DNA of 10,856 nucleotides, from positions 1 to 10,856 of IMG/VR virus record IMGVR_UViG_3300045988_151163; one strand, written 5' to 3'. The translations under genes were made by a program, and so were the position numbers. The notes beneath the pieces are model-generated. The model did not search any database and was not told where the DNA came from. It saw nothing but the letters and a program-made list of their open reading frames with translations. Of the stretch, positions 7,660 through 10,856 are shown one piece after another (the first letter of the stretch is position 1; each line of letters begins with the position of its first letter). The stretch comes from a virus.

Positions 7660-8454
7660 CTATACAGTACATCCGCATCCAGCGTTGCAGCATGCTCTAT
7701 ATCCATATATTCCTGTATAAGGATTTGGAACTTGATATGATGGAACTGGAGCTGGGCTAAGTGCATTTACAAGATATGTATTCTGTGCAGCCTGTGAAGC
7801 AGCAAATTTAAGTGACTGATTCTCAGCTGTAAGAGTAGCAATCTTGTCTTGTGTTAAGAAATCTAAGATACTTCTTGTGTTAGCATCTTGATTAGCTATA
7901 ATATCTCTTGAAGAATCAGCAATGGCTTGTCTTGTTTGACAGCTCTGATCTGCAATATTATAGTTTAAGTTAGCAAACTGAGTTGCGCTCTCGTATCTCT
8001 GATCACAGCAGCATTGAGCGATCTGTGTACCAATACCAGTAAGTTGGCTAGTAATAGCATTTGTATTCTGCATATTAGCTATTGTGTCTGCGTTTACTGC
8101 TGCAGTCACATCAGCTTGAGCGCCCTGAATAGCATTACCTAATGAATTGAACCCATTAAGCATACCTGTGTTCATAGCATAGAATCCATCACAAATACCA
8201 TTGTTTACGCTATCAATTTTTCTTTCGATGTTAGCAAAATCTGTTGTAAGGATATAACCATCAGTAATACCAGAAGCTGTTGCGTCTTTACCACCACCAA
8301 ATAATCCATTACCCCAGTTATCTCCACCGGCAAGAATTAAGATGAAAAGAACAATCCACCAGGAATCTCCTCCCCATCCATTGTTTCTATCGTTTCCGCC
8401 TGTTGCGGCTGCGATATCGGCTAATGAATAGCCATTAGTGTTTCCATTGAACAT
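7660..8454 (-). CDS. membrane protein: YjcZ/tiny-TM-like Gly-rich N-terminus + helical N/Q/A/T-rich domain + Cys-cluster C-terminus (264 aa)
   Basis: AGGAGG lies 7 nt before the ATG. GWGGDSWWIVLFILILAGGDNWGNGLFGGG resembles the Bacillus sporulation tiny-TM family (G-rich followed by a FALIVVLFILLIIVG-type helix). The middle has a heptad-like N/I/Q/A pattern and a CCC triplet. The protein ends YRACCNAGCGCTV. Confidence 0.65.
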   Translation of the reverse strand: MFNGNTNGYSLADIAAATGGNDRNNGWGGDSWWIVLFILILAGGDNWGNGLFGGGKDATASGITDGYILTTDFANIERKIDSVNNGICDGFYAMNTGMLNGFNSLGNAIQGAQADVTAAVNADTIANMQNTNAITSQLTGIGTQIAQCCCDQRYESATQFANLNYNIADQSCQTRQAIADSSRDIIANQDANTRSILDFLTQDKIATLTAENQSLKFAASQAAQNTYLVNALSPAPVPSYQVPNPYTGIYGYRACCNAGCGCTV

Positions 8455-8479: not shown

Positions 8480-8731
8480 TTATTTAACGCCCATTTTGTT
8501 TTTAAAGGCGGTAAATTCTTGATCAAAATTGACACCCTTTTGATTAGATAAATTCTTAGCAATCTGCATTAACTGGAATGAATTTCCCATTTGTGCTAAT
8601 TGCATTAAATTTTGTCCCATAGGAGTCTGTCCCATTCTTTCTTGGAGGATATTCATAGTAATTTGTTGCGGATTTGCTCCACCCTGAATTGCTTGAATAA
8701 TTTGCATTGGATTAAAACCTTGTCCTTGCAT
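8480..8731 (-). CDS. Gln/Met-rich small protein (83 aa), unknown function
   Basis: Weak SD (GAAAGGAAG). Composition about 19% Q and 12% M. Repeated MQ/QxxQ pattern. No Cys. No recognised domain. Confidence 0.5.
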   Translation of the reverse strand: MQGQGFNPMQIIQAIQGGANPQQITMNILQERMGQTPMGQNLMQLAQMGNSFQLMQIAKNLSNQKGVNFDQEFTAFKNKMGVK

Positions 8732-8752: not shown

Positions 8753-9151
8753 TTAAAAATTAAATCCTTCTTTACTTTGCGGTTGTGGGGTTACTTGTGG
8801 CTGTGTAGCTTGAGAAATAGCTTCTTTAACTTTAGCCATAGTTTCCTCAAATTCCTGTTTAGTAACGAAATCACCGACTGCCGCGGTCTTCTCAATAGGC
8901 ACCCAATCATATTCTTCTAATTTAACATTACCATTTAAGTCAATTTGTTTGGTATAAATTTTTTTATTTGCCATATCTGGAAAAACAAAAATACTTCCAT
9001 CAAAATCAACTTGAGCTGCTCTAACTTCATCTACTGATGAAACAAATCTTCCTTTCAAGAGATTCTGTTGCGGCATCTCATATGGAACCTGTCTAGGTGC
9101 ATATGACTGTTGCGGCTGATTTGGATAATAATATGCATTTGGTTGAAACAT
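8753..9151 (-). CDS. small protein with Q/P/Y-rich termini flanking a globular core (132 aa)
   Basis: AAAGGAGGA lies 6 nt before the ATG. N-terminus MFQPNAYYYPNQPQQSYAPRQVPYEMPQQ and C-terminus QATQPQVTPQPQSKEGFNF are low-complexity. The core is KGRFVSSVDEVRAAQVDFDGSIFVFPDMANKKIY.... It is the first gene of the operon. Confidence 0.6.
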   Translation of the reverse strand: MFQPNAYYYPNQPQQSYAPRQVPYEMPQQNLLKGRFVSSVDEVRAAQVDFDGSIFVFPDMANKKIYTKQIDLNGNVKLEEYDWVPIEKTAAVGDFVTKQEFEETMAKVKEAISQATQPQVTPQPQSKEGFNF

Positions 9152-9327: not shown

Positions 9328-9347
9328 GAGCCCTCCTGAGAGGGCTT
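9328..9347 (-). terminator. rho-independent terminator for the large minus-strand gene
   Basis: Stem AGCCCTC/GAGGGCT with loop CTGA. On the minus strand the hairpin is followed by CTTTTTTA. It overlaps the TAA stop at 9347-9349. Confidence 0.6.
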
Positions 9348-9598
9348 TAATTACCTAAATCTACTTTAAATTTTTTAGCTAAATGTTGAATATTTTGTTG
9401 TATTTCTTCATCAGACTGAGATTCTTCTACTATTCCAAAATAATCTATTTTTAATTGTGGAGTATTCAAAGCAGTATTATGATTAAAAGTGGTTTCTTCA
9501 GTTGGAAAAGTGCTTTGTCGATTTCCTATTATTAAAAAGTAATCTCCTTTAGAAAAAGAACCATATGAATCTATAAAATAACTTGCTGATTTTTCCAT
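9347..9598 (-). CDS. C-terminal segment of the large N/Y-rich protein, reached only in the -1 frame (83-aa ORF in isolation)
   Basis: It begins 12 nt after the stop of the 9610-10856 frame. A -1 shift at the A8 run joins the two ORFs into protein-like sequence: ...KPKKNIYVFKTPIVENGKYFAFINNLKMEKSASYF.... Confidence 0.5.
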   Translation of the reverse strand: MEKSASYFIDSYGSFSKGDYFLIIGNRQSTFPTEETTFNHNTALNTPQLKIDYFGIVEESQSDEEIQQNIQHLAKKFKVDLGN

Positions 9599-9609
9599 TT
9601 TTAAATTAT

Positions 9610-10856
9610 TTATAAATGCAAAATATTTACCATTTTCAACAATAGGAGTTTTAAATACATATATATTTTTTTTGGTTTTATATTTTTAGAAATCCAAATT
9701 GCATCTTGATATGTTGGATTAATTATTGAATATACTAAATTTGAATATGATAATAATTTATGATTAAAAGCGTTTGCTCCTCTATGATATTCTGTACTAC
9801 TTAAAGTAGTAGTATTATTATAATTCATTAAAGCATAACCCCACTCTTTTGATATCCATAAACCATTATCATCTTTATAATTTTCATATAATTTATTTAA
9901 ACTAAACATTTCAGGATAATATACAATTTTATCTTTATAAGAGCCTGTAGTTCCTTTAAAAGCAATTCCACTTGTAATTATTTTATGCATATAACCATGT
10001 TGTACTGCATCATAACCAGTCTCATTCTGTAAAGATTCCACTCCAATATCATAAGCAACTAAATAAATTGTTTTATTATAAAAAGGTTTTTTACTCGTCA
10101 ACAATAGTCTATCACCAGCATCCAAGTGAATATATCCCATTTCCATATTGCCATCTGGAACCATTTTTATATTATTATAAATATTTTTATAAAAAGTATT
10201 TTCTTCTTTTCTATCATATATTTTTTCATTATCTTCATAGCATCCTGCCCATAATTCTATTTCAGCATTTTTTAAAATACTTCTTTTTTTATATTTACTC
10301 AAGCCTAAAACAATATTATTATAAGGTAAATAGAATATCCCACCAATATTTATAAATTTTTGCCCCGATCCCGCAATTTCAGTTAAAAAACCAGCAGAAA
10401 CTAAATTTGTTGATATGTATAATCTATCTGTTATCTCACTTGAACCTATTTCTATATTAACACCATTATTAAAAGTACATCTAGTAAATATAACTCTATC
10501 ATCAGAACTTTCAACAACAGGCCCATTAGGAATATTAAATTGACTACATATAGGTTCATCAATTTGAGGATTTCTTACTAATCTGCCATTATGTAAAAAA
10601 TAAATTGCATTATACAATGCATTTCCAAGACTTCCTTTATACCCATTTTCATTAACAATAGGTGAATCACATAAAACAATTAAAGTTTCATATCCAACAC
10701 TATCACATAAAAACCAAAAATAATTTGCATTTTGAGAAGAAGATATATTATATTTAACATTACAATATTTGTCATTTATTAAAAAACTTATATCATTGAT
10801 ATTAGAAATTGCAATATCTGATATACTAGCTCCATTATCTTGCCAAGAGGTTAATT
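9610..10856 (-). CDS. large Asn/Tyr/Ile-rich protein, 5' end beyond the right edge; possible structural or receptor-binding protein
   Basis: I translated by hand upstream of the track's TTG at 10617 and the frame stays open to position 10856. There is no recognisable catalytic motif. The 0-frame ends 21 codons after the A8 run with an implausible tail (IYMYLKLLLLKMVNILHL). Confidence 0.6.
   Translation of the reverse strand, partial: LTSWQDNGASISDIAISNINDISFLINDKYCNVKYNISSSQNANYFWFLCDSVGYETLIVLCDSPIVNENGYKGSLGNALYNAIYFLHNGRLVRNPQIDEPICSQFNIPNGPVVESSDDRVIFTRCTFNNGVNIEIGSSEITDRLYISTNLVSAGFLTEIAGSGQKFINIGGIFYLPYNNIVLGLSKYKKRSILKNAEIELWAGCYEDNEKIYDRKEENTFYKNIYNNIKMVPDGNMEMGYIHLDAGDRLLLTSKKPFYNKTIYLVAYDIGVESLQNETGYDAVQHGYMHKIITSGIAFKGTTGSYKDKIVYYPEMFSLNKLYENYKDDNGLWISKEWGYALMNYNNTTTLSSTEYHRGANAFNHKLLSYSNLVYSIINPTYQDAIWISKNIKPKKIYMYLKLLLLKMVNILHL
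9666..9673 (-). other. T8/A8 homopolymer; in-frame slippery heptamer A_AAA_AAA at the frame junction of the large gene
   Basis: mRNA reads CCA AAA AAA ATA. A -1 slip, or one extra A, continues for about 105 more codons to the stop at 9347. The 0-frame stops after 21 codons. Confidence 0.55.

What the first reader, a model, noticed from the sequence alone, without database searches (positions are those of the whole stretch)
7660..8454. Chimeric membrane protein: YjcZ-like tiny-TM N-terminus fused to a long helical domain with three cysteine clusters
The first roughly 55 residues (G/N-rich, then WWIVLFILILAGG, then G-rich) look like the Bacillus sporulation-associated tiny-TM proteins, which are normally 35-50 aa in total. 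Here that module is fused to about 200 aa of N/Q/A/T-rich heptad-like sequence, flagellin-like in composition but containing Cys. A CCC triplet sits mid-domain and the protein ends CCNAGCGCTV. Cys-rich tails are typical of disulfide-cross-linked basal-layer coat proteins (the CotY/ExsY/CdeC style). The architecture is one I do not recognise as described.
Basis: partly seen in the sequence, partly recalled or inferred. Interest (0 to 1): 0.55.

Follow-up and report, generated by a model that had tools for sequence, protein, structure and literature searches.

The report
Widespread gut-phage anchored stalk protein
This is a real gene from a very large, uncharacterised family of gut-phage proteins (a short greasy anchor, then a long cysteine-stapled helical rod) that travels in a small late operon with a BclA/C1q-like partner; it is not a one-off fusion with a sporulation peptide.

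Summary
The ORF (7660-8454, minus strand, 264 aa) and all the described features are real. It is not a chimera. The whole architecture is conserved in PHROG 16490 (unknown function), with about 8,000 clusters at 90% identity and 2,637 at 50%, all 126-333 aa and never fused to other domains. No member hits the YjcZ/tiny-TM models, and a search with the N-terminus alone finds only fragments of the same family. The gene is the core of a terminator-bounded six-gene operon (p132, p83a, T264, p142, p184, p107 peptidase). That operon recurs, in whole or in part, in gut and rumen phages of Firmicutes and, in modified form, of Bacteroidota, including crAss-like phages. The next gene, p142, is predicted with confidence to be a BclA/ExsF/C1q-type TNF-like jelly roll. 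The long helix is not heptad-based: it has a 29-residue repeat and a 3.63-residue periodicity, and the invariant middle Cys of CCC lies on the core stripe. In a TAG-recoded relative the operon carries in-frame TAGs like the tail genes, so it is late-class. The best reading, at modest confidence, is an N-terminally anchored, Cys-stapled stalk that docks a TNF-like trimer, forming a fibre-like accessory module exposed at lysis. The function remains experimentally unknown.

The parts
9329..9346 (-). Intrinsic terminator closing the upstream gene (p83b). A 177-nt intergenic region follows before the operon.
   Evidence: Stem AGCCCTC/GAGGGCT plus a T-run; sequence read.
8753..9151 (-). p132, first gene of the operon: Y/P/Q-rich N-terminus, small beta domain, conserved EYVT+EEF helix. 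Function unknown.
   Evidence: phrog_21718 at E 3e-5. The family sits at position -2 relative to T264 in 62 of 91 loci. Alignment A3. No PDB relative.
8480..8731 (-). p83a: small Met/Gln-rich helical protein with repeated NP..MQ motifs.
   Evidence: At position -1 in 34 loci, with a 75-aa analogue (phrog_22984) in 16 more. The STI1/holdase idea was not supported.
7660..8454 (-). T264, the finding: 264-aa member of PHROG 16490.
8401..8430 (-). T264 residues 9-18 (YSLADIAAAT): the most invariant stretch of the family, within an acidic N-terminal tail.
   Evidence: Y9, S10, L11, D13 and A15 are invariant. The N tail carries 2.9 D/E against 0.7 K/R per sequence.
8323..8361 (-). T264 residues 32-44 (WWIVLFILILAGG): short hydrophobic anchor bracketed by Trp/Gly belts.
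   Evidence: The core is 11-15 aa in 180 homologues and is conserved in the crAss-like and Bacteroides-phage versions. AF2 models a helix at 32-41.
7759..8238 (-). T264 residues 73-232: long straight helix with a 29-residue repeat and 3.63-residue periodicity.
   Evidence: AF2 single helix with pLDDT up to 90. Repeat and periodicity. Length variation and CCC-unit duplications occur in homologues.
8005..8013 (-). CCC triplet (C148-C150). All three are invariant, and C149 lies on the predicted core stripe.
   Evidence: The triplet is duplicated exactly 29 aa apart in 8 loci.
7714..7761 (-). T264 residues 232-247 (LSPAPVPSYQVPNPYT): nearly invariant Pro-rich motif, a candidate docking peptide.
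   Evidence: L232, P234, P236, P238, A239, Y240, V242 and P245 are at least 90% conserved. The motif is present in all lineages.
7663..7692 (-). T264 residues 255-264 (CCNAGCGCTV): C-terminal Cys cluster.
   Evidence: Most homologues have 2-6 Cys in the last 25 aa; a few lineages have lost them.
7224..7646 (-). p142 (true start probably the ATG at 7646; 140 aa): stand-alone BclA/ExsF/C1q-type TNF-like jelly roll. Its GGAGG Shine-Dalgarno overlaps the T264 stop codon.
6661..7215 (-). p184: conserved helical N-domain (ELGEVVDMIKDL..YYC), an Arg/Ser/Met/Tyr/Gly low-complexity middle, and a helical C-terminus.
   Evidence: At position +2 in 29 loci; a 132-136 aa analogue (phrog_28802) occurs in 21 more.
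6337..6660 (-). p107: small HExxH metallopeptidase-like protein, last gene of the operon.
   Evidence: phrog_1233 at E 2e-14; weak DUF6782, SprT-like and M78 hits around the HEITH motif. At position +3 in 26 loci. Other versions of the module carry a putative Cys peptidase instead.
6328..6355 (.). Bidirectional intrinsic terminator shared by the operon and the convergent RuvC gene.
   Evidence: 12-bp stem with T-runs on both strands.

Best explanation
T264 is the stalk-and-anchor subunit of a late-expressed accessory module found in gut phages. SHOWN: it is a real, conserved gene and the constant core of a terminator-bounded operon. It combines a short, very hydrophobic N-terminal segment, a helix of about 130-160 residues (19-24 nm) with one continuous core stripe at 3.63 residues per turn, an invariant CCC on or next to that stripe, a nearly invariant Pro-rich C-terminal motif, and a terminal Cys cluster. 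The next gene, whose ribosome-binding site overlaps the T264 stop codon, encodes a BclA/ExsF/C1q-type jelly roll. INFERRED: T264 forms a parallel homo-oligomeric, probably trimeric, straight helical bundle. Its N-terminal segment holds the bundle in the cytoplasmic membrane or in a hydrophobic socket. The acidic N-tail, the absence of a positively charged n-region, and the absence of signal peptides on every partner suggest that the rod and its partners assemble on the cytoplasmic side. The Pro-rich C-terminal peptides would dock into the inter-subunit clefts of a p142 trimer, in the way the BclA and F-Anchor leader peptides dock into ExsF. The adjacent cysteines would then lock the complex by disulfides or metal once it meets oxidising conditions. 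p132, p83a and p184 would be assembly factors, and the peptidase (p107, or a Cys peptidase in other versions) would be a processing enzyme. The finished product would be a cross-linked fibre with a lectin-like TNF head, exposed only when the cell lyses, either on virions or on membrane remnants, and serving adhesion or host-surface binding in the gut.
Against: No virion proteomics or genetics exists for any member. In temperate relatives the module lies after holin and endolysin and before the integrase, which is a moron-like position and not inside the tail module. A strongly hydrophobic segment is unusual for a virion fibre. The alternative +1 partners (c13 and the crAss-type protein) show no detectable homology to p142, although the Pro-rich motif is universal, so the docking partner may not be p142. 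Cys covariation between T264 and p142 is weak, and the p142 CC motif persists in lineages where T264 has lost all its Cys. The oligomeric state, the topology and the complex were not computed.
Confidence: 0.35

Rival explanations
1. Lysis-associated membrane protein. On this reading T264 is a T4-T-like holin or lysis-timing regulator, with a short N-terminal tail, a single TMD and a large Cys-containing C-terminal domain, and p142 and the other partners are its regulators.
For: It has a single hydrophobic segment and is late-class. In temperate relatives it lies a few genes downstream of holin and endolysin. In crAss-like cr52_1 a protein annotated as LysB/FtsL-like lies two genes upstream. 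The coarse resemblance to T4 holin T rests on my own knowledge.
Against: There is no hit to any holin, antiholin or spanin model in Pfam or PHROGs. Relatives already carry canonical holins and endolysins. In Ceridwen the operon is separated from the lysis genes by an annotated terminator. In CPD1, C3_41T2LP and the large phages it is not next to lysis genes. A 20-nm rod with a TNF-like partner has no precedent in lysis control.
Confidence: 0.15
2. Superinfection-exclusion or host-surface-modifying moron. On this reading a membrane-anchored protein blocks DNA entry or masks receptors of competing or progeny phages.
For: The module occupies the slot between lysis genes and integrase in temperate phages, forms its own transcription unit, and moves between unrelated phages. 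It has a membrane-type hydrophobic segment.
Against: It carries the late-gene recoding signature, whereas an exclusion gene would be expected to be expressed in lysogeny or early. It is present in large, apparently virulent phages with their own replication machinery. Known Sie proteins are single small proteins, not a six-gene operon with a peptidase (own knowledge). PADLOC gives no hit.
Confidence: 0.12
3. Cytoplasmic-face membrane tether or scaffold. On this reading the anchored rod and its partners organise phage replication or virion assembly at the membrane, in a phi29 p16.7-like manner.
For: The inferred N-out/C-in topology and the lack of signal peptides on the partners. The operon abuts the replication module in this phage lineage. 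The partners carry low-complexity Arg/Tyr/Ser-rich regions.
Against: The operon is transcribed divergently from the replication genes and is insulated from them by terminators. It carries late-class recoding, unlike the nucleotide-metabolism genes. No DNA-binding domain was detected. Conserved Cys clusters and a TNF-like head are more typical of extracellular structures.
Confidence: 0.1
4. One reading: a chimera of a YjcZ-type sporulation tiny-TM peptide with a Cys-rich, spore-coat or exosporium-like helical domain, acting in spore-surface assembly.
For: Cys-rich tails and a BclA/ExsF-like neighbour recall exosporium design. Many inferred hosts are spore-forming Clostridia.
Against: No tiny-TM HMM hit in 47 members. 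The N-terminal search retrieves only fragments of the same family. The architecture is ancestral to a family of 2,637 clusters, not a recent fusion. Clear homologues occur in phages of non-sporulating Bacteroides and in crAss-like phages. The context is a phage late operon.
Confidence: 0.03

Closest known systems
PHROG 16490 (with phrog_20016 for the partner)
   Same: Full-length profile match (residues 11-262 against profile positions 12-281 of 286, E 1.6e-30). The same pairing with phrog_20016 occurs in annotated phages.
   Different: The PHROG carries no function. The family's operon context, anatomy and size had not been described in the searched literature.
Bacillus exosporium nap and ENA tip systems (BclA or F-Anchor with ExsF/BxpB)
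   Different: The stalk here is an alpha-helical bundle, not collagen. The docking peptide would be C-terminal, not N-terminal. There is no hit to the BclA_C or exosporium-leader HMMs. The genes are phage-encoded and also occur in Bacteroidota phages.
Phage fibres and needles with TNF-like knobs (Sf6 gp9 tail needle, PRD1 P5, cyanophage A-1(L) short fibre)
   Same: A rod of about 20-24 nm with a TNF/C1q-fold head, and late expression.
   Different: In those proteins rod and knob are one polypeptide with no hydrophobic anchor. Here they are split over two genes, the rod carries a membrane-type segment and Cys clusters, and the module lies outside the core tail genes in temperate phages.
T4 holin T and lambda Rz i-spanin
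   Same: Single N-terminal TMD followed by a large or helical domain with functional cysteines; late phage genes.
   Different: There is no sequence or profile similarity and no lipoprotein partner. The family occurs in phages of monoderm hosts, canonical holins are present elsewhere, and the N-flank is acidic rather than positively charged.
YjcZ / tiny-TM family (TIGR01732)
   Same: A short Ile/Leu/Phe-rich core flanked by Gly-rich sequence.
   Different: Those proteins are 35-50 aa in total and sporulation-specific in Bacilli. No HMM or search link to T264 was found.

Membership tests
PHROG 16490 | Significant full-length match to the family profile | tested here: met
   E 1.6e-30, residues 11-262 against profile positions 12-281 of 286.
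YjcZ / tiny-TM (TIGR01732, PF09680) | Match to the family HMM | tested here: not met
   No hit for the window protein at E<=1, nor for any of 47 family members at E<=10.
YjcZ / tiny-TM (TIGR01732, PF09680) | Total length about 35-50 aa, stand-alone | tested here: not met
   264 aa here, and 126-333 aa across the family. The short hits from the N-terminal search are truncated T264 genes.
YjcZ / tiny-TM (TIGR01732, PF09680) | Sporulation-controlled expression in Bacilli | not testable with these tools
   The context is a phage operon.
CotY/ExsY/CdeC-type Cys-rich spore proteins | Homology to spore-coat or exosporium Cys-rich families and a sporulation locus | tested here: not met
   No Pfam or NCBIfam hit. 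The context is phage, and homologues occur in Bacteroides and crAss-like phages.
Holins | Match to a holin family, or being the only membrane protein next to the endolysin | tested here: not met
   No holin model hit. Relatives carry Phage_holin_4_1 or PHROG holins plus endolysins separately.
i-spanin / o-spanin pair | N-terminal TMD with a periplasmic coiled coil, plus an adjacent or embedded outer-membrane lipoprotein gene, in a diderm host | tested here: not met
   No lipobox-bearing partner is present; p142 starts MEITANA with no signal sequence. The family is common in phages of Clostridia, Butyrivibrio and C. perfringens.
Canonical heptad coiled coil | 3.5-residue hydrophobic periodicity | tested here: not met
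   The moment is 0.02 at 3.5 against 0.64 at 3.635 over residues 105-232.
BclA_C / C1q-TNF superfamily (for the partner p142) | TNF-like jelly-roll fold | tested here: met
BclA_C / C1q-TNF superfamily (for the partner p142) | Match to Pfam BclA_C, and a collagen-like stalk in the same polypeptide | tested here: not met
   No Pfam hit in 26 members at E<=10. The protein is a bare 140-aa domain.
BclA_C / C1q-TNF superfamily (for the partner p142) | Trimeric assembly | not testable with these tools
   No multimer prediction was available.
Phage virion fibre | Presence in purified virions | not testable with these tools
   No proteomic data were found for carrier phages.

The most novel reading that the evidence does not exclude
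The six-gene operon may be a previously unrecognised, self-contained phage organelle-building module shared across gut phages of different bacterial phyla and virion types. It would build a membrane-tethered, thiol-stapled alpha-helical fibre (29-residue repeat, CCC rings) capped by a TNF-like trimer and matured by a dedicated peptidase. Its role would have no counterpart among known phage functions, for example tethering progeny or membrane remnants to gut surfaces, or redox-triggered cross-linking on leaving the anaerobic cell.
Probability: 0.25. Interest if true: 0.75.

Novelty: new variant of a known kind. Interest (0 to 1): 0.5.

Why it matters
Families of this size (2,637 clusters at 50% identity) that cross host phyla and phage morphotypes, yet have no function, are prime targets in gut-virome dark matter. 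This one now has a defined operon, a defined anatomy and a structurally assigned partner. Cultured carriers exist (Butyrivibrio phage Ceridwen, C. perfringens phages CPD1 and CPQ4, Bacteroides phage C3_41T2LP), so its role can be tested directly. If it is an adhesion fibre or a redox-locked structure, it would bear on how gut phages persist and spread. The BclA/ExsF-like partner also links phage design to exosporium design.

Tried and rejected
1. YjcZ/tiny-TM membership: HMM scans of the protein and of 47 relatives, plus a database search with the N-terminal 61 aa, were all negative.
2. Sequence search of T264 against the PDB and a Foldseek search with the AF2 model gave nothing; a lone helix is uninformative.
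3. 'Sporesilk' A-ENA fibres as an analogue were rejected: they are isopeptide-linked hairpins with no Cys and no TM segment.
4. p83a as an STI1/ubiquilin-like TMD holdase was rejected: no STI1 hit in Pfam or the PDB, so only the composition is similar.
5. Profile searches of p132, c13 and the putative Cys peptidase c4 against the PDB gave nothing.
6. Homology between p142 and the alternative +1 partners was not detected by hhalign.
7. Cys covariation between T264 and p142 as evidence for a disulfide link is inconclusive. Both fully Cys-less T264 lineages have partners lacking C30 and C51, against 3 of 45 otherwise, but the CC motif is retained and the two lineages may not be independent.
8. 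Defence-system models (PADLOC) gave no hit.
9. A double-glycine leader with a C39-type peptidase was considered from memory and rejected, because the position after G19 is not conserved.
10. Literature searches for the PHROG identifiers, for DUF7841, and for carrier-phage proteomics found nothing relevant.

Full report
**1. The observation**

The window carries a 264-aa ORF at 7660-8454 on the minus strand, with an ATG start, a TAG stop and an AAGGAGG Shine-Dalgarno 8 nt upstream.
- a G/N-rich N-terminus;
- the hydrophobic core SWWIVLFILILAGG (residues 31-44);
- a Gly-rich linker;
- a 173-residue stretch that is 45% N+Q+A+T;
- Cys at 88, 148-150, 172, 255, 256, 260 and 262, with the ending CCNAGCGCTV.

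AlphaFold2, run with a 47-sequence alignment, models residues 73-232 as one continuous helix (pLDDT up to 90) and residues 32-41 as a short helix. The rest is modelled as disordered.

**2. It is a family, not a chimera**

Pfam, NCBIfam, PADLOC and PDB sequence searches give nothing. PHROG 16490 (unknown function) matches over the full length at E 1.6e-30. In the 5.8-billion-protein collection, 7,986 of the 8,000 scored candidates were significant, and nearly all of those listed cover 93-100% of the query. An exhaustive profile search of 1.84 billion representatives found 2,637 clusters at 50% identity (1,315 at E<=1e-10). The best 150 are all 126-333 aa, so there are no fusions to other domains.

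The conserved elements are:
- the N-terminal YSLADIAAAT;
- the WWIIILFLF core;
- SGITDGYILTSDFANIERKIDGVNNGLCDGFY;
- an invariant CCC;
- QSCQTR;
- ANTRSILDFLTQDKIA.L.AENQSLK;
- L.P.P.PAY.V..P;
- a terminal Cys cluster.

The core, the CCC and the Cys tail are also present in distant homologues from Butyrivibrio phage Ceridwen, C. perfringens phage CPD1, crAss-like cr52_1 and Bacteroides phage C3_41T2LP.

**3. The YjcZ link fails**

No member of a 47-sequence sample hits the tiny-TM models, even at E<=10. A search with only the N-terminal 61 residues retrieved 21 proteins. All of them are truncated T264-family genes, and many are cut exactly where a TGA-encoded Trp would follow.

**4. The surroundings**

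The plus strand encodes a DnaE C-terminus, a guanylate-kinase-like protein, an intact NrdD, a dUTPase and a RuvC. On the minus strand, a strong terminator (9346-9329) follows the upstream gene p83b. After a 177-nt gap, six tightly packed genes follow: p132, p83a, T264, p142, p184 and p107. A bidirectional terminator at 6328-6355 closes the unit.

Relatives of the source phage are 90-156 kb human-gut contigs with the same layout. There the operon follows tail-fibre-like genes and abuts the divergent replication module.

Across 90 loci, from public phage records, metagenome contigs and 80 genome bins (mostly Clostridia and Bacilli, plus a cultured Enterocloster hominis), gene order and strand are fixed. 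Clustering places:
- the p132 family at position -2 in 62 loci;
- p83a or a 75-aa analogue at -1 in 50 loci;
- p142 or a Cys-rich beta-rich 143-aa alternative at +1 in 56 loci;
- p184 or a 132-aa analogue at +2 in about 50 loci;
- p107 at +3 in 26 loci;
- a putative papain-like peptidase (invariant Cys, His and Asp) in 29 loci.

In temperate relatives of about 40 kb, the module lies after canonical holins and endolysins and before the integrase and repressor. In cr52_1 it lies among tail genes.

**5. The partner**

p142 has about 5,800 homologues of 139-141 aa, so its real start is the ATG at 7646. Its GGAGG overlaps the T264 stop codon. It is predicted with confidence (pLDDT 84.6, pTM 0.80). 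Its closest solved folds are:
- C1q and TNF members;
- several phage receptor-binding heads: cyanophage fibre 12.4, TM4 gp23 9.3, Sf6 needle knob 9.1, PRD1 P5 8.6.

Stand-alone 130-145 aa proteins of this fold recur in gut sipho-, myo- and podo-type phages.

**6. Anatomy of the rod**

The helix contains a 29-residue unit (..NTNAI..Q[LI]..CCC[DE]..) that is duplicated in eight loci. The family-averaged hydrophobic moment over residues 105-232 peaks at 3.635 residues per turn and vanishes at 3.5. This implies one unbroken, rather polar core stripe on an essentially straight helix, that is, a non-supercoiled bundle and not a heptad coiled coil. The invariant C149 lies on that stripe.

The hydrophobic core is only 11-15 residues. 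The 30-residue N-tail is acidic (2.9 D/E against 0.7 K/R per sequence), and the C-flank is nearly neutral. In this protein the 19-residue Kyte-Doolittle maximum is 1.44. This is not a classical Sec signal-anchor, and none of the operon partners has a signal peptide. I therefore infer that the rod and its partners assemble on the cytoplasmic side.

**7. Timing**

In relative L008, which reads TAG as Gln, in-frame TAGs are dense in the tail-like genes (17 in 640 codons, 8 in 474, 22 in 828, 9 in 539) and in the operon (5, 3, 3, 2 and 0 per gene). They are nearly absent from the dUTPase, NrdG-like and NrdD genes. From published work that I recall (Borges et al. 2022; not re-read here), recoded stops mark late genes. 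On that basis the operon is late-class.

**8. Mechanism**

The best-supported picture is a fibre-like module: an anchored, Cys-stapled, probably trimeric rod whose Pro-rich C-terminal peptides and Cys cluster dock onto the TNF-like trimer. The closest precedent is ExsF, a stand-alone TNF-like trimer that binds three Pro-rich exosporium-leader peptides in its inter-subunit clefts (PMC12357932). Like spore surface layers, the product would be built in the cytoplasm and exposed by lysis, and the thiols would then be able to cross-link.

The steps from oligomerisation onwards are inference. I could not run multimer prediction. Cys covariation is inconclusive. The alternative +1 partners are not detectably homologous to p142.

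The rival readings are a lysis regulator, superinfection exclusion, and a cytoplasmic tether. They remain open and are listed with their tests. The spore-coat/YjcZ reading is essentially excluded by the phage context and by the homologues in Bacteroidota phages.

**9. Novelty**

The protein belongs to a catalogued but functionally blank family. Its operon, its 29/8 Cys-bearing rod and its BclA/ExsF-like partner were not found in the searched literature. I rate it a new variant of a known kind (stalk plus TNF-like head fibres), with a 25% chance that it is something categorically new. Interest is moderate (0.5): the find is not spectacular on its own, but the family is very widespread, cultured carriers exist, and its function can be tested directly.

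Noticed in passing
L008 (ENA ERZ9423965 NODE_4, 91 kb; T264 homologue at 10001-10741): This close relative of the source phage (70% identity) uses TAG as a sense codon, apparently Gln: PAY*VPNPY aligns with PAYQVPNPY. In-frame TAGs are concentrated in the tail genes, the operon and the RuvC-like gene, and are nearly absent from the nucleotide-metabolism genes. The window phage itself ends T264 with TAG, so it is not recoded.
   Followed up: partly
L016, L025 and protein fragments P0395-P0410: Many T264 homologues have TGA where the conserved Trp residues of the hydrophobic core belong ('SW*IIILF', '...GAW' then stop). This indicates phages or hosts that read TGA as Trp (code 4), and gene callers split these genes into 34-43 aa fragments.
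   Followed up: partly
window 1981-4137 versus L004/L005 14472-17428 and L008 14035-17279: nrdD is intact (718 aa) in the window. In the relatives it is split into two ORFs by an inserted HNH_3 endonuclease gene, which looks like a homing-endonuclease intron or intein polymorphism.
   Followed up: no
L002 (CPD1) 5143-5766; L003 (Dulem virus 33) 5160-5711; L001 (Ceridwen) 7163-7957: HNH or NUMOD-type homing endonuclease genes sit inside or directly beside the module. In CPD1 one lies between the p83a and T264 homologues. This may help explain how the module spreads between unrelated phages.
   Followed up: no
L009 (cr52_1) 4662-5585; L010 (C3_41T2LP) 4602-5519: The Bacteroidota-phage T264 homologues carry an extra Met-rich N-terminal extension (DPAALMAMMNNNGG, DPNLLVAMNGKNGG) that resembles p83a motifs. 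It looks as if the small upstream protein were fused on. Public annotations call these proteins 'spike protein/glycoprotein' or 'outer capsid protein/viral fiber'.
   Followed up: partly
window 6661-7215 (p184); L009 4027-4626; L010 6675-7371: The module repeatedly includes proteins with Arg/Asp/Tyr/Ser/Gly low-complexity tracts (for example RDYDRDYDR and SREGRSPMSRRSYMESKEMH), sometimes joined to Pfam DUF7841. No function is known.
   Followed up: partly
window 6337-6660 (p107) and the c4 family (e.g. L001 4719-5096): The operon ends with a minimal HExxH metallopeptidase. Other versions carry a ~125-aa protein with invariant Cys, His and Asp (phrog_3754), plausibly a papain-like peptidase. 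A dedicated protease therefore seems to be a recurrent component.
   Followed up: partly
window 9347-10617 (p83b, p335): The two genes upstream of the operon have no homologue in any of the 90 related loci and no family hit. They appear specific to this phage.
   Followed up: no
window 5209-5249: The listed dUTPase ORF (TTG start at 5209) overlaps the end of the preceding 87-aa ORF by 41 nt. The true dUTPase start is probably further downstream, since the Pfam match begins at residue 22.
   Followed up: no
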